Shown: in pieces, positions 30,001 through 36,000 of the stretch
Position numbering within the stretch: the stretch's first letter is position 1
Layout of the letters: the number at the start of each line of letters is the position of its first letter
Virus record (IMG/VR): IMGVR_UViG_3300046047_000272
Direction: 5' to 3' (one strand)
DNA: 64,000 nucleotides
DNA from: a virus
Lineage: Duplodnaviria > Heunggongvirae > Uroviricota > Caudoviricetes
Program-made: the position numbers

Positions 30001-33000
30001 GCCCTCAGATGATACGTTATACTAGATGATACCAGAATCGGGATTAGACGCGAGATCTATTATTCTTATTTATCCTATGAATATCAGATGGGGTCAACAG
30101 TATCATACTGTTGACCCCATCTGTAAACGGTATATATTATTCCCAGTTTGATCCTAATACCTCATGTGATCCAGTAAAATCTATAGGACGACGTTCATCA
30201 AGATTGTCAACATCATCGGCTTCATTGATAGTTCGTTCGAACGATCTTCTCGTTTCTGGTGACATGTTATCCTCGTCAACGCCAATCTCAAAATCTGGCA
30301 TTTGATCTGATAGTCGTTGCAAGACAAGTAGGGCTTCTCCAACGGCAACATCTTCTGACGCCTTCGTCGTTCCATTGAGAATACGAAGGAAGAAATCACC
30401 ATTCGTATCGAAGAAGGTTCCATCTGAAAGCGTGAATGCTGCTCTTCCAAATTCTTGATTAATCATGCAATGATAGGTGTGATCGTCAATCTGGACGGTG
30501 ATGGTATTAGTTGTATCCATGAGATGAGGATATCTTAGATCGTCTCAATCGGACTGGTATCATTGATGGTCGTCGTATCCTTAAATAGCGTCATCGTTAG
30601 TTTTACGGTGCCAAGGTAGGAATGAGCAAGCGTCCATAGCTAAGGATAGTACGGTAAATACTGGTAGAGCATAGAAGAGAATGGATACTCCTGATACGAT
30701 GGCTGATAATACAACGGAGTATTCTATTGGTGGCTGAGCATAGACGTCCTTAATCATGAACCCTGTAGCAGCGACAAGCATCGCATTGCCAAGGATGGAC
30801 CAGAATCCGCACCATAGGTTTCCGCGATCATTAGAAAATGCTATGCCCTGAAAAGTCCATGCACCGAACACTGGGATGATAATCATGATGGTAATGACGG
30901 TTAGTGGTATATCAGCCATTGAATGAACATGTGGTAGTACAAAGATTAATAATGCACAGATTGAAGCTAATCCAAGTATCAGGAACCATTTTGTCACATG
31001 ATCCTCAACATGATGATGCTCACTCCTTCTCGATACAGCCAAGTTAAAAGACCATTTTGCGGGGATAAAGAGCGCAGCTAGAAATAAGAACATAACCATA
31101 AGTATCATATTGTTTTCTCCTCTTCCTTAATTTGAGGTAATTAGCAATGATCATGGTGAATACGATATTGAGTATGATTTGCCCGTACACCTATACGATA
31201 TCAATGGCACCAGGAGCATCGCATGTATAAATGGCCGGGAACCATCAATACTATGATTAGGTGGTTCCCGGCCATTATGGTTGATGTGATTACTTCTCAG
31301 ATTTTGCATCATCAGTATTCGGTGATGCCTCAACCTCGTCGTGTGAATGATCGGTGCCAGCGATCTTCCTGAGTGATGCTGACAGGTCCACGCCAGTAAG
31401 CGTATTGACTAATGTCGGCAGCTTAGCCGCAAGATTCGTCACTAGACTCGATGTCTGATCATTCGCATCGGTACCAACACTCGTGATCTTCGCGCCCTCT
31501 AATGGCTTGCTGATAGCAGAAGCCAGTTCTGGAAGCTTCTCGATAATCAGTGATTGCAACGCAGCCTGTCCATATCGCTTGTAAGCATCAGCCTTCTTCG
31601 TCATGGCCTCAGCCTCAGCAAGACCCTGAGCCTTAATTGAGGAGGCCTTAGCGTCACCCTCAATCTTAACGGCATCAGCTTGAGCCTGTGCCCTCAATCG
31701 AGTAGCCTCAGCCTCAGCAGTAGCTGTCTGCTTGGTGACCTCAGCCTGAGCCTCGGCATCGATCTTCCTCTTATACTTGTCAGCGTCAGCCTTCGTATTC
31801 ACTTCATACTCTAACTTGACTCTCTGCAACTTAACATTCTCAGCCTCAGCAAGAGCCTCGGCCTCAGCGATCTTCTTATTCTGAGCCTGCTGTTCAAGAC
31901 TCTTAGCGGCATCGGCCGAGACCTCGGCCTTATTCGTTTCAGCTCGAATAGCGGCCTGTTGTAGGGACAACGCCTTCTGACTTGACGCGACTTCCTGGTC
32001 AGCGCTAATCTGAGCCTGCTGAGCTTTCTGCTTAGCGTTAGCATTAGCTATGGCCGCCTCTCGCTTGACGGCAGCCTCCTGAGGAGTACCTAGAGCTTCG
32101 ATGTAGCCATTCTGATCAGTGATTTCCTGAATCTGCAGAGTATCAAGTATTAATCCTTGAATATTGATGGAGTCAGCGACTTCTTGACGGAGATTCTCTG
32201 AGAACGCGGCCCTGTCTCCAAGGAGGCTCTCAACAGTCATGGTTCCAACAATGGATCTCATGGATCCCTCAATGATCTCCTTGACATATGGCTCCATTAA
32301 TTGCTCTTGCTTAGCAAATCTCTGAGCAGCCAGTCGAATAGACTCATCGGTGTTGTCAACCTTGAAATTAGTGACCACCTTTAATTGAATCTTAATCTTA
32401 TCCTGAGAAATAGCATCACATTGCGTGCTGATCTGGTGGGATCGGAGCGATATGCTGACGCATCGATTCACGATGGGCAGGACGAATCCACCCTTATTCT
32501 GTAATACGCGAGTAGCCTTATGACCATCAGAATCCTTACTACTCGATCCAGAGATAATGAACGCCTCGTTAATGGTTGGCGTCTTATATCGACTGACGAG
32601 GAACCAGATCAACAATAGGACGATCACAACAATCGCTCCTACGCCAGCTATAGTATTTAGCATTGGTGTCTTCCTTTCTATAATAATTGATGTCATCATG
32701 ACACCATATCATGATATGGCGCATTGTACCATTACAGGAAAAGAAGACGGAGGCATGGAATGCGTCATCGTCTTAATGAAGCTGAGTAAACGTAGGACAT
32801 TGATTCGAAGAGTGTCATATGACCATGATTAAAGACAATGGATCCATTACGCATCCGTCCAGCGGGGTCAACATAGGTTACGCTAACGGTTGTATGAGAT
32901 GGACGATGCATTGATTGAGCTACGATATTGGAAAGATCCATATCAGCTGATGTTTGTAATTGCGTCACATCGTAGTAATCATTGAATGCCGATATAGTTG

Positions 33001-36000
33001 ACGATACTTGTTGATCGGCTATTGATGCATTGACCATCGTCACGCCAATATACGACCATGAACATGAAGCTATAATAACGCCAAGAATCATCACGATGAA
33101 TCGATGTATCGGTTGCATCATATCTGGCATACGATGATGAGCATGATGAGCAATCATAGATTGCCTACCAGTATTAGTCACTTGGTCAATGATCACCATC
33201 ATAATAACCGACGCTATCACGCTTACGCACACGACACCTGCAACCATCATTGATGAGGCTGTGACCATTGCTGTTGAGATGACCATCTTAGTATCCAATC
33301 CACTATGAAGATAACTACGATAATCATATCATGAGGAACCGTATGACACGCGGATTAGCATTTGCTGAACGATGACCGCTATAACTGTGGCGATTGCAAT
33401 GGTTGGTCATCCTGCGTCATATCAGTAGTTATTGCGTCCAACGTGTCAGCATTGACTTGTTCTTGACGCATGGCGTCCTGTTGACGCTTTTGATTCTGAG
33501 CTGATTGTAATACATGAACGATAATAAGATTCCTACGATCATCGTATTGGTCAATAGATAATTCGTCACCCTGTGAAACATCAGTGTCAGCAACGAATCT
33601 GATAGCTACTCTCTCACCATTGATAACCATTGATGACGCTCCCACTAAATTCGCCTTCGTCGTGGTCTGAGCGATAATTGAATGACCTATACTATCCGAT
33701 ATCGATCGTTCGTTACCATCACTTGATCGTTTCATGAGAGCACTGATGATTTTGACGACAATAGATGATGATATAAGCCCAGCAATGCCAGAAACGCCCA
33801 TAACGGTCAATGCTGGTAAGCCTAATCCTATGGTAATCATAGCAGACGCTCCAGCAATACCCATGAAAGCACCAATGGCTCCAGTAATGAACGATCCCCC
33901 ACCCTCAAAACCAAAATCAACGCCAATATCAGATCCTAACGCTGATAACGCTAATAGCCCAGCACCAATAACCGTTATTAGAATAGTCCAGGATATCATA
34001 TGCTACTCCTCTATTTCATCAAGTTCAGCGACACCGGGAAGAGGCGATGATACGGCCTTAAGATCAATTAGATGACTTGCTGTTACATCGTTTCCATTAG
34101 CGTCAACAAGATGATGAACGCCATATCGTTTCAAGAATTCCTGTAGGGTCATACGACTACCCATTGGCCCCCAATTCCATTCTACAGTAGCGTACTTCCA
34201 GTCCGGCATCTTTGATAATATGCCAGTGTTTACAGCATGGGAGAGGGCAACCTTGACTCCAGGATTCGTCTCAGACGTCGCGAAGGCCTCATCAATACAA
34301 CCATCAGTGTTCACACTATATCGAATCATCGATAAATCAACGATTGTATCACCATGTCCTGCCTCTAGTAGGAGACCATCATTCCTGATGGTACATGGAA
34401 CTGAGACGGTATGACGGAGTGTCGTAGCCGCTGTATAGAACGTCGGATCCCATGAGACGAGAATTGCCGTGTCATCAGATGGCTGCATGATCTTGGATTT
34501 AGGGGTTACCGTGTCCTCTTCGTCCCCGGACAATCGTTCTAATAAATGATCAATGCTGATACCATGATCGTGCGACAGATGTAACACGTCAATGAGCTCC
34601 TCGGTCGCTTGATCATCCACACCGACAAGGCCCTGTCGCTGAATTGATCTTACACCAGCGATAAGAATTGATAATACAATATCCTCAGGATCTGCTGTTT
34701 GGGCGTCCTCGACACCGGCCTCTAATAGTATTCGACTTTTATTCACTGATTTAACAGCCGATTTTAGGATGCTGACGCCCCTATCAATAGTTTTCTGATC
34801 AGTCATGATTGTCCCCTACTAATTGTTGCTCCAAGGCGCTAAGATCTTGAGCTTGAGCAGTGACGAATAATCTCGTAGCTGGGTCAAGACGCAATGAACG
34901 ATGACCAATAGACAGGACGCGATCCGTTAATAGTGTTTTCCTAGTCGATGGCGTATCGACGGTAATACCATCGACGACGATCATAGCATGTCCTGATAAT
35001 GCGTCGATCATCCAGGATGGGATGACGATATGCTGATCATCGTCAACTTTTACGTCAAGGTCATGATCGTTTGATAGGATCACGAGAGTGGATTGATCAG
35101 CGTCAGCTAATTGTTTGAACATCGTATAATCATGCCGTCCCCCACGACTCTGATTAGCCATAAACCAAATGTCCTCAGGCTGATGATGCAATTGCCGTTT
35201 TAGCTCCTCATTCTCTGATCTCAGTATTTCGAGAAGATCATCCTCATTGAGACCAGAATTGATAGGATGATCTGTCTGATCATCCTCAATGATATCGTGC
35301 ACAGATTCAGACGGTTCTGTTTGACTTTCCGACTGATCATCATGATTCGTCGTCGTGTTTTTATGGTCATCATACGGTAAACCGTAAGCGTCATCATGTA
35401 ATGGAAGATCGTTGAATCCGGCGTATCGTTCTAAGAATTTCTTAGCTCTATCTGCTATCGGTGTTTGATCATCGTCCTGGTCATTGTCAGACACCATGTT
35501 CTCTATGGCGTCAGCTAAGGCACGTGGATCCATAATAGGTTGATCATCAGGACTATGATCTTCTAGAGGCAATGGAGGGCTAGTGTAATCATCAGCTTCC
35601 TGTTGAGCAATAACCCTAGCCTGCGCCTCACTGGAATCACCGTATTGGAAATCTGATGGATGCTGTTCATAGACGTATAACTGTTGCAATTTTGGATGCT
35701 GCTTCAAGTATCCGCTCGGCATGATTGATCCTATAGGTACATAATCCGATGACGATGAATCTGGGTCTATGAGTAATACGACATCATCGTTATTCAGAGC
35801 TATACGGCCATCAATGACACCATGGTCTTCCATCTTCCAACCCTTGAATGTCGCTCTGGCATCCTTACCATTCAACTCTGACACTGGTATTGATCGATAA
35901 TCAATAGTGACTCCGGGAAAATCTTCTTGGTCATGTACATCAGATTCACGGCCATCAGTTGCTGTGTCAATATCGTCAGCATCGGCTTCAGACAAAATCT

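What the first reader, a model, noticed from the sequence alone, without database searches (positions are those of the whole stretch)
30581..33999. Flotillin plus NfeD-like membrane operon on a phage-like element
The minus-strand operon contains an NfeD-like protein (transmembrane region plus OB barrel), two small polytopic membrane proteins, and a full flotillin (SPFH plus AEAQ coiled coil).

Flotillin/NfeD pairs organise membrane microdomains in Firmicutes and Actinobacteria. Carriage by a virus or mobile element is unusual. It may scaffold the membrane for assembly of the sortase/pilus machinery or for phage release.
Basis: partly seen in the sequence, partly recalled or inferred. Interest (0 to 1): 0.55.

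Follow-up and report, generated by a model that had tools for sequence, protein, structure and literature searches.

The report
Huge-phage flotillin with NfeD-like partner
A roughly half-megabase bacteriophage carries its own copy of a bacterial membrane-scaffold pair (a flotillin and its NfeD-type partner), which related phages have kept for a long time; the proteins are of a known kind, and what is unusual is that a virus carries them.

Summary
ORF 32699-31290 (minus strand) is a full-length flotillin: Pfam Band_7 E 2e-19, and an end-to-end alignment to human flotillin-1/2.

The element is a huge phage, not host flank. It has rIIA/rIIB, a virion protein and a tRNA array. Base composition is uniform. 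The contig is 491 kb, and a 420-kb relative is listed in IMG/VR.

The pair is kept in all 7 related gene arrangements examined, and the phage flotillins form their own clade. The two small membrane ORFs are not conserved. Three upstream genes (489, 513 and 193 aa) are.

Flotillins in phages are rare but not unprecedented: 10 GenBank phage records and 53 IMG/VR loci. The proposed link to sortase and pili is not conserved in relatives.

Most likely function, by inference: a phage-made SPFH scaffold that stabilises the host membrane or its proteins during infection. This is a new member of a known kind, of moderate interest.

The parts
31290..32699 (-). Full-length FloT/YqiK-type flotillin (469 aa): N-terminal hydrophobic anchor, SPFH domain at residues 60-222, Ala/Glu/Gln-rich coiled coil, and a C-terminal flotillin region
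   Evidence: Pfam Band_7 2.1e-19 and Flot 1.6e-5. Human flotillin-2 E 3.5e-39 over residues 79-441. NCBIfam FloT 2e-68. Hydropathy and composition. It is the most conserved gene of the block, at 43-74% identity to relatives.
33379..33999 (-). Short NfeD-like partner (206 aa): three predicted membrane helices, a five-strand OB-type barrel (residues 107-163) and a C-terminal helix
32765..33298 (-). 177-aa ORF between the NfeD-like gene and the flotillin; two hydrophobic segments and a C-terminal half with none; specific to this phage
   Evidence: Hydropathy. No family hit. No homologue in relatives. A Logan gene call of 173 aa lies at the same place.
30581..31108 (-). 175-aa polytopic membrane ORF downstream of the flotillin, with a strong Shine-Dalgarno sequence (AAGGAAGAGGAG); specific to this phage
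   Evidence: Hydropathy, about 4-5 segments. Sequence upstream of the start codon. No homologue in relatives.
30137..30520 (-). 127-aa acidic ORF, the last gene of the minus-strand block; specific to this phage
   Evidence: ORF list. D+E 21%. No homologue in relatives.
34003..34806 (-). 267-aa ORF, 3 nt upstream of the NfeD-like gene; relatives have a gene in the same position but with no detectable similarity, except in L003
   Evidence: 3-nt gap to the 206-aa gene and 8-nt overlap with the 489-aa gene. 40% identity to L003. hhalign to the positional equivalents gives probability 0.2%.
34799..36268 (-). 489-aa acidic protein, the conserved first gene of the unit '489 aa - variable gene - NfeD-like - flotillin'
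   Evidence: Homologues at 24-33% identity upstream of the pair in L003, L006/7/8, L009 and L014. No family hit.
36744..38285 (-). 513-aa protein with a single membrane helix; conserved neighbour of the flotillin block
   Evidence: Hydrophobic segment at residues 180-211. Homologues at 32-36% identity in L003, L006/7, L009 and L014.
38335..38916 (-). 193-aa membrane protein (2-3 helices); conserved neighbour and first gene of the minus-strand block
   Evidence: Hydropathy. Homologues at 26-46% identity in L003, L006/7, L009 and L014.
31230..31276 (-). Perfect 15-bp GC-rich hairpin starting 14 nt after the flotillin stop codon; possibly a terminator, attenuator or RNA-stability element
   Evidence: Inverted repeat I14. 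Sequence. The T tract after it is weak, so its function is inferred.
30085..30123 (-). Perfect 19-bp hairpin just downstream of the last minus-strand ORF; the likely end of the block, facing the hairpin at 29937-29976 that follows the topoisomerase gene
   Evidence: Inverted repeats I2 and I8. Sequence.

Best explanation
The block encodes a phage-borne copy of the actinobacterial-type operon 'short NfeD-like protein + flotillin'. An ancestor of this lineage of huge phages acquired the pair and the lineage has kept it since.

During infection the flotillin would insert into the host cytoplasmic membrane by its N-terminal hydrophobic segment. It would then oligomerise through its SPFH and coiled-coil regions into the cage- or clamp-like assemblies that SPFH proteins form. 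The NfeD-like protein would bind it through its OB barrel and stabilise the oligomer.

The most likely benefit to the phage is to keep the host membrane and its proteins stable during the infection cycle. This could include the phage's own membrane proteins, such as the conserved 193-, 513- and 489-aa neighbours.

Shown here: protein identities, fold, homology to the cellular pair, conservation across relatives, and the phage context. Inferred: assembly on the membrane, NfeD binding, and the benefit to the phage.
For: - Flotillin identity.
- NfeD-like fold: (also 33 and 40).
- Same family as the cellular flotillin partner: the A3 profile scores 88 bits on the Nocardioides gene upstream of flotillin. 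It hits 77 of 80 actinobacterial loci, in 74 of them directly upstream on the same strand. hhalign gives E 2e-5.
- The pair is present in all 7 related gene arrangements examined. The two genes are adjacent or separated by one small gene in 6, and 5.5 kb apart within the same cluster in L003.
- Phage flotillins P0001-P0016 form one clade, separate from the cellular ones, in a neighbour-joining tree. No genome representing 185,579 species has a relative above 39% identity.
- The gene matches phage composition. Flotillin GC3 is 0.50 against 0.43-0.53 for phage core genes. Window GC is an even 0.43-0.47 over most of its length.
- Phage context: rIIA 2.7e-45 and rIIB 1.8e-31; a virion structural protein, dNMP kinase and an initiation-factor-like protein; 7 tRNAs; CHAP domain and clamp loader; a 491-kb contig; the relative is an IMG/VR entry.
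- Mechanistic precedent: the S. aureus FloA-NfeD complex stabilises unfolded membrane proteins without ATP, and NfeD stabilises the oligomer (PMC11222466). The QmcA-YbbJ SPFH-NfeD cage is cited in PMC13086221.
- Genes for envelope and membrane functions lie nearby: rIIA/B, a VKOR homologue, TelA and a transglycosylase.
Against: - There are no expression or localisation data.
- The 206-aa protein does not reach any Pfam NfeD threshold. Only 2 of 17 family members give weak hits, at E >= 0.034, so NfeD membership rests on a predicted fold and on synteny.
- In L003 the flotillin has moved away from the NfeD-like gene, so strict adjacency is not required.
- Other phage lineages carry flotillins with no detectable NfeD neighbour, so the partner may be dispensable.
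- The physiological role of bacterial flotillins is itself debated.
- No capsid, portal or terminase gene lies within this window, so phage identity rests on other marker genes and on the IMG/VR listing of the relative.
Confidence: 0.6

Rival explanations
1. Scaffold for the phage-encoded sortase and SpaA-type pilus. The flotillin microdomain would concentrate the phage sortase and pilin substrates so that pili are assembled on the infected cell.
For: The pilin gene (39157-40587) and sortase gene (40580-41443) start about 240 nt from the 5' end of the minus-strand block, in divergent orientation. Flotillins are reported to help assemble membrane machineries, for example the type VII secretion system in S. 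aureus (PMC5718613, title listed).
Against: No pilin or sortase homologue lies within 10 kb of the flotillin in L003, L006-L009 or L012-L014, whereas the flotillin/NfeD pair is present in all of them. In L003 the cluster is flanked by the topoisomerase gene instead. The adjacency in this window looks like the result of a local rearrangement.
Confidence: 0.08
2. Regulator of a membrane protease or of lysis timing. Like HflK/C with FtsH, the phage SPFH cage would enclose or restrain a host membrane protease (FtsH or an M48-type enzyme), or the phage's own holin-type proteins. This would protect phage membrane proteins or set the time of lysis.
For: That HflK/C cages control FtsH rests on my own knowledge of the field and was not retrieved here. 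Related loci carry LemA, a TM2-domain protein and an M48 peptidase near the flotillin. The rIIA/rIIB homologues, named lysis inhibitors in PHROGs, lie 11 kb away.
Against: No protease gene lies in this window's block. The flotillin is of the FloT/flotillin-1/2 type and not the HflK/C type. No holin was identified next to it.
Confidence: 0.15
3. Counter-defence or superinfection exclusion. The module would buffer the membrane against host abortive-infection effectors that depolarise or perforate it, or would block DNA entry by competing phages.
For: It sits close to rIIA/rIIB; in T4 the rII genes counter Rex-mediated membrane collapse (own knowledge). TelA is also nearby. The block contains many small membrane proteins specific to this phage, which is typical of genes involved in phage-host conflict.
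Against: No PADLOC defence model matches any of the nine proteins. The strong conservation of the flotillin (43-74% identity) is unlike fast-evolving conflict genes. No literature link between SPFH/NfeD and anti-phage functions was found.
Confidence: 0.12
4. This is not a phage function at all: the operon is host chromosome next to an integrated element, a recently captured passenger gene, or an assembly chimera.
For: The closest named homologues are cellular, from Actinomycetota at 33-39% identity. No capsid or terminase gene lies in the window.
Against: Phage genes lie on both sides. GC and GC3 match the phage genes. An independent assembly is identical. The module is conserved in phage relatives whose GC ranges from 0.49 to 0.61, against 0.45 here. 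The phage flotillins form one clade. No cellular genome carries a close relative.
Confidence: 0.03

Closest known systems
B. subtilis yuaF-floT (yuaG) operon and E. coli yqiJ-yqiK: a short NfeD-type membrane protein followed by a FloT/YqiK-type flotillin
   Different: The genes are on a virus of about 0.5 Mb. The flotillin scores 231 bits against the 700-bit FloT equivalog cutoff, so it is not a FloT orthologue in the strict sense. The partner has three helices plus an extra C-terminal helix and fails the Pfam NfeD HMM. A 177-aa ORF is inserted between the two genes. The unit is embedded in a conserved phage cluster with three proteins of unknown function.
Actinobacterial operon of a roughly 165-aa membrane protein plus flotillin (e.g. 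Nocardioides sp. R1-1, L005; the L010 locus)
   Same: This is the closest cellular relative of both genes. The flotillins share 33-39% identity. The partner belongs to the same HMM family (88 and 47 bits) and lies directly upstream in 74 of 80 loci.
   Different: The phage versions form a separate clade. Their GC3 is 0.36-0.50, in loci whose cellular counterparts have 0.70-0.73 GC. The phage partner carries an extra C-terminal helix and an acidic tail.
S. aureus FloA-NfeD complex (Ukleja et al. 2024, PMC11222466) and E. coli QmcA-YbbJ SPFH-NfeD cage (PDB 8z5g)
   Different: FloA and QmcA are short stomatin-like SPFH proteins, not flotillins of the FloT or flotillin-1/2 type. Nothing has been shown for the phage proteins.
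SPFH/Band 7 and 'flotillin family' ORFs already annotated in phages (T4-like 44RR, Aeh1 and RB43; Vibrio phage KIT04; PHROG 200; Xanthomonas phage X1)
   Same: These are virus-encoded SPFH proteins (PMC1524935). KIT04 encodes a 473-aa 'flotillin family protein'.
   Different: No NfeD-like neighbour was detected for KIT04 or in 16 representative IMG/VR flotillin loci. Those flotillins share only 28-33% identity with this one. None has a described function.

Membership tests
SPFH / Band 7 superfamily | SPFH domain recognised by the Pfam Band_7 HMM above its gathering score | tested here: met
   PF01145 E 2.1e-19, 70.7 bits against a cutoff of 23.6, residues 60-222.
Flotillin (FloT/YqiK/flotillin-1/2 type) | N-terminal membrane anchor (hydrophobic hairpin or helix) before the SPFH domain | tested here: met
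   A single hydrophobic segment at residues 10-41, Kyte-Doolittle maximum 3.1. Prediction only.
Flotillin (FloT/YqiK/flotillin-1/2 type) | Long Ala/Glu-rich coiled-coil 'flotillin domain' C-terminal to the SPFH domain, alignable with eukaryotic flotillins | tested here: met
   phmmer aligns residues 79-441 to residues 41-416 of human flotillin-2, E 3.5e-39. Residues 225-400 are 24% Ala and 11% Glu.
Flotillin (FloT/YqiK/flotillin-1/2 type) | Pfam Flot (PF15975) above its gathering score | tested here: inconclusive
   25.4 bits against a cutoff of 27, E 1.6e-5. The precomputed Pfam annotation of the identical protein P0001 lists PF15975.
FloT equivalog (NCBIfam NF058507) | Score above the curated equivalog cutoff | tested here: not met
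   231.6 bits against a cutoff of 700. It is a homologue, not a FloT orthologue by that criterion.
Flotillin (functional) | Oligomerisation into membrane-bound cages or foci, and association with detergent-resistant membrane | not testable with these tools
   Requires biochemistry or imaging.
NfeD family (short form, YuaF/YqiJ-like) | C-terminal five-strand OB-fold barrel | tested here: met
NfeD family (short form, YuaF/YqiJ-like) | Recognition by the Pfam NfeD HMM (PF01957) | tested here: not met
   No hit at E <= 0.1 for the window protein. Only 2 of 17 family members hit, best E 0.034. The Nocardioides partner gives E 0.0048, below the cutoff.
NfeD family (short form, YuaF/YqiJ-like) | N-terminal membrane helices preceding the barrel | tested here: met
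NfeD family (short form, YuaF/YqiJ-like) | Encoded in an operon with an SPFH gene | tested here: met
   Same strand and 680 nt upstream in the window. Present with the flotillin in all 7 phage gene arrangements examined, and directly upstream in 74 of 80 cellular loci.
NfeD family (short form, YuaF/YqiJ-like) | Physical binding to the SPFH partner | not testable with these tools
   No complex prediction or experiment was available.
Bacteriophage (huge or jumbo phage) genome | Virus marker genes and a viral classification of the element | tested here: met
   rIIA and rIIB. Virion structural PHROG 1383, 6.5e-25. A transglycosylase domain of the kind found in tail and tape-measure proteins. A tRNA array. 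The 420-kb relative is IMG/VR entry 3300044557_000292. Capsid, portal and terminase genes are not in this window, and the full contig could not be read.

The most novel reading that the evidence does not exclude
The flotillin/NfeD pair may be the recognisable part of a larger, phage-specific membrane system. The conserved 193-aa and 513-aa membrane proteins and the 489-aa acidic protein travel with it in five related loci, representing four distinct relatives, whose GC ranges from 0.49 to 0.61. Under this reading, huge phages of Gram-positive (probably actinobacterial) hosts would build their own flotillin-bounded membrane microdomain in the infected cell. That virus-made 'raft' would house a dedicated phage machinery for, say, genome entry, a replication compartment or particle release, rather than simply boosting a host housekeeping function.
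Probability: 0.2. Interest if true: 0.7.

Novelty: new member of a known kind. Interest (0 to 1): 0.4.

Why it matters
Bacterial flotillins and their NfeD partners are widespread, but their physiological role is still argued over.

This lineage of very large phages has kept its own copy of the pair, and the flotillin is the best-conserved gene of its neighbourhood. That implies the assembly gives a direct benefit within a single infection cycle, which is a cleaner setting for asking what the complex does than pleiotropic host mutants.

It also adds membrane scaffolding to the list of host-like functions that huge phages carry. And it points to three conserved proteins of unknown function as candidate clients or partners of a flotillin.

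The proteins themselves are of known kinds, so the interest is moderate.

Tried and rejected
- Megablast of 28-38 kb against GenBank phages and PLSDB plasmids: no match.
- Pfam, PHROG, NCBIfam and PADLOC scans of the 206-, 177-, 175-, 267-, 489-, 513-, 193- and 127-aa proteins: nothing significant.
- Word-indexed homologue searches for the 206-aa and 489-aa proteins: only 2 and 1 relatives besides the protein itself. An exhaustive profile search found only 17 representatives of the 206-aa family.
- Profile search of that family against PDB sequences: no meaningful hit. The NfeD link appears only at the level of fold and through the cellular operon partners.
- hhalign of the 267-aa protein against the genes in the same position in relatives: no homology. 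I therefore dropped it from the conserved core.
- Sigma-70 promoter and terminator scans of 29.7-39.3 kb: the counts were not above those in shuffled sequence, so no promoter is claimed.
- A search for NfeD-like neighbours of the flotillins in 16 representative IMG/VR loci and in KIT04, using the family HMM and Pfam: none found. The Pfam negative is weak evidence, because the window's own protein also fails Pfam.
- Literature searches for flotillin or SPFH in huge, jumbo or cyanophages, and for SPFH/NfeD in anti-phage defence: no functional study of a phage flotillin found.
- The afdb50 fold library was not available.
- Host-flank and chimera explanations: rejected on composition, flanking phage genes, an identical independent assembly and conservation in relatives.

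
Full report
**What is in the sequence.** The finding's coordinates match four minus-strand ORFs exactly: 33999-33379 (206 aa), 33298-32765 (177 aa), 32699-31290 (469 aa) and 31108-30581 (175 aa). They belong to a longer run of nine minus-strand ORFs from 38916 to 30137, of 193, 513, 489, 267, 206, 177, 469, 175 and 127 aa. The 489- and 267-aa genes overlap by 8 nt, and the 267- and 206-aa genes are 3 nt apart, so the transcription unit very probably starts upstream of the stated region. A perfect 15-bp hairpin begins 14 nt after the flotillin stop codon (31230-31276). 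A perfect 19-bp hairpin (30085-30123) follows the last ORF and faces a third hairpin behind the convergent topoisomerase gene. Consensus promoter and terminator counts were no higher than in shuffled sequence, so I claim no promoter.

**The flotillin.** The 469-aa protein hits Pfam Band_7 at E 2.1e-19, well above the cutoff, and Flot at E 1.6e-5, 1.6 bits below the cutoff. Residues 79-441 align with human flotillin-2 and flotillin-1 from solved structures at E 3.5e-39 and 1.9e-33. The NCBIfam FloT model aligns over residues 22-446 at E 2e-68, although far below the equivalog cutoff. There is one strongly hydrophobic N-terminal segment (residues 10-41), and residues 225-400 are rich in Ala, Glu, Gln and Lys. 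'Full flotillin' is therefore correct.

**The NfeD-like protein.** The 206-aa protein matches no model in Pfam, PHROGs, NCBIfam or PADLOC. An exhaustive profile search of 1.8 billion representative proteins found only 17 relatives.

- AlphaFold2 on the 17-sequence alignment gave pLDDT 85.4: three helices (2-25, 35-58, 63-101), a five-strand barrel (107-163, pLDDT 90-97) and a C-terminal helix.
- In the BFVD viral library the only significant match was a protein annotated as 'NfeD-like C-terminal domain-containing' (E 1.3e-6).
- Independently of structure, a profile of the family scores 88 bits on the 165-aa gene directly upstream of flotillin in Nocardioides. That gene itself gives a sub-threshold Pfam NfeD hit (E 0.0048).
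- In the 80 best actinobacterial flotillin loci the profile finds a homologue in 77, directly upstream on the same strand in 74.

The 206-aa protein is thus the phage version of the usual actinobacterial flotillin partner. It is NfeD-like in fold and in gene context, but too divergent for the Pfam HMM.

**The two small membrane ORFs.** The 175-aa ORF is polytopic and has a strong ribosome-binding site. The 177-aa ORF has two hydrophobic segments and a C-terminal half with none. Neither these two nor the 127-aa ORF has a homologue in any related locus. They are specific to this phage and are not conserved parts of the system.

**What the element is.**

- The identical flotillin sits on a 491,046-bp metagenomic contig. 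A 74% relative sits on a 419,707-bp contig that IMG/VR lists as UViG 3300044557_000292.
- The window itself carries rIIA-like (E 2.7e-45) and rIIB-like (E 1.8e-31) genes and a transglycosylase domain of the kind found in tail and tape-measure proteins.
- It also carries a virion structural protein family, a dNMP kinase and an initiation-factor-like protein, ribonucleotide reductase and an RNA ligase/kinase, a CHAP hydrolase and a clamp loader, and seven tRNAs within 2.2 kb.
- GC is an even 0.43-0.47 over most of the window. Flotillin GC3 (0.50) lies within the range of the phage core genes (0.43-0.53), unlike the TnpB gene, which stands out at 0.67.
- An independent Logan assembly is 100% identical over 11.7 kb.
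- No genome among representatives of 185,579 species carries a flotillin closer than 39% identity, and all 80 listed best hits are Actinomycetota.

The 'host chromosome flanking an integrated element' alternative is therefore rejected. One caveat remains: no capsid, portal or terminase gene lies in this window, and I could not read the rest of the contig.

**Conservation in relatives.**

- Sixteen 90%-identity clusters (P0001-P0016, 43-100% identity) form a single clade, separate from cellular flotillins, in a neighbour-joining tree.
- I examined eight related loci, representing six distinct relatives. All carry an NfeD-like gene of the same family. It lies directly upstream of the flotillin in L006/L007/L008, L009, L012 and L014. 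One small gene separates the two in L013, as in the window. In L003 the flotillin has moved 5.5 kb, to the other end of the same cluster.
- Homologues of the 489-, 513- and 193-aa proteins accompany the pair in L003, L006/7, L009 and L014, whose GC is 0.49-0.61 where measured, against 0.45 here.
- The flotillin is the most conserved gene of the block (43-74% identity, against 24-46% for its neighbours), which fits strong purifying selection.
- The gene between the 489-aa homologue and the NfeD-like gene occupies the same position everywhere but shows no detectable similarity across relatives.

**How unusual it is.** A tblastn search of 50,697 GenBank phage records found 10 with a flotillin. 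Most are unannotated metagenomic records or short fragments. One is Vibrio phage KIT04, with an annotated 473-aa 'flotillin family protein'. A profile-seeded scan of IMG/VR returned 53 loci with near full-length flotillins on contigs of 11-413 kb. All but the close relative share only 28-33% identity with this one, and they fall into several groups by composition. In 16 representative loci and in KIT04, neither the family HMM nor Pfam found an NfeD-like neighbour. SPFH ORFs have been listed in T4-like phages since 2006 (PMC1524935) and again in a 2026 Xanthomonas phage paper. I found no functional study of a phage flotillin. Virus carriage of a flotillin is therefore rare but recurrent, and the flotillin-plus-NfeD pair was seen only in this lineage.

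**Mechanism.** By analogy with solved and studied SPFH-NfeD systems, the phage flotillin should anchor in the host membrane and oligomerise into a cage or clamp, with the NfeD-like protein stabilising it through its OB barrel. The precedents are the S. aureus FloA-NfeD complex, which stabilises unfolded membrane proteins without ATP (PMC11222466), and the QmcA-YbbJ cage, cited in PMC13086221. Other genes for envelope and membrane functions lie nearby: rIIA/B, a VKOR homologue, TelA and a transglycosylase. Relatives also have TM2, LemA and M48 genes near the flotillin. I consider membrane or membrane-protein stabilisation during infection the most likely benefit. All of this is inference.

**The sortase/pilus idea.** The pilin and sortase genes lie next to the block only in this window, and no homologue lies within 10 kb of the flotillin in any relative. 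Protease or lysis-timing control and counter-defence remain possible. No PADLOC model matched.

**Verdict.** This is a new member of a known kind: a FloT-type flotillin with a divergent short NfeD partner of actinobacterial ancestry, kept over the long term by a lineage of huge phages, together with three conserved proteins of unknown function. Interest is moderate.

Noticed in passing
window 27376-28803 and 28800-29888 (+): A type IA topoisomerase is split into two ORFs that overlap by 4 nt (ATGA). The break falls inside the Topoisom_bac domain, at profile positions 290/299 of 411. The relative L003 also has an N-terminal piece of about 473 aa, so the split may be conserved (a two-subunit enzyme) rather than a frameshift error.
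   Followed up: partly
window 39157-40587, 40580-41443 and 281-3451 (+): The phage encodes a SpaA-type LPXTG backbone pilin with an overlapping sortase gene, plus a 1056-aa SpaA/SdrD-domain surface protein. None of these lies within 10 kb of the flotillin in relatives.
   Followed up: partly
window 3834-5294 (+): A TnpB/Cas12f-like gene (TNB domain E 1.6e-16) has GC 0.56 and GC3 0.67, against 0.43-0.53 GC3 for phage core genes. This suggests a recently inserted IS element.
   Followed up: partly
window 16720-26443 (+): A run of membrane and envelope genes lies just upstream of the flotillin block: rIIA-like, rIIB-like, a VKOR homologue (21657-22265, 61% identical to the VKOR-annotated gene of L003), TelA (22330-23652) and a FIVAR/transglycosylase protein (25472-26443).
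   Followed up: partly
window 61736-63931 (+): An array of seven tRNAs: Pro x2, Asn, Lys x2, His and Leu. The tRNA-Asn is 90 nt long, which is unusual for Asn and could indicate an intron or insertion.
   Followed up: no
window 7157-8632, 5952-6647 and 44103-45365 (+): RNA-repair genes: a kinase plus T4-type RNA ligase 1, a HAD 'Swiss Army Knife' domain protein, and a second kinase plus metallophosphatase protein. Together with the tRNA array, this suggests a counter to host tRNA-cleaving defences.
   Followed up: no
window 46575-47156 (+); L006 13164-13823; L009 10374-11015; L014 11717-12358: A TM2-domain protein is encoded 14 kb from the flotillin in the window. In three relatives its homologue is the next or next-but-one gene after the flotillin, with LemA and an M48 peptidase nearby. 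It may be a further part of the membrane gene set.
   Followed up: partly
L016-L067 (IMG/VR contigs): 52 further IMG/VR viral contigs (11-413 kb; locus GC 0.29-0.44) carry near full-length flotillins at 28-33% identity, in several distinct gene contexts. No NfeD-like neighbour was detected. In many contigs of 70-140 kb from one dataset (3300045988) the gene lies about 13-16 kb from a contig end.
   Followed up: partly
window 58623-59219 and 47162-49942: A protein matching the PHROG named 'translation initiation factor' (E 4.5e-36), and two adjacent genes resembling phage alpha-glucosyltransferases, which suggests DNA or cell-wall glycosylation.
   Followed up: no
window 36390-36770 (+): A 126-aa plus-strand ORF lies across the 475-nt gap between the 513-aa and 489-aa minus-strand genes, running 27 nt into the 3' end of the 513-aa gene. 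The Logan annotation also calls it as a gene, and L003 has a 143-aa opposite-strand gene at the same place. It may mark a boundary between two transcription units.
   Followed up: no
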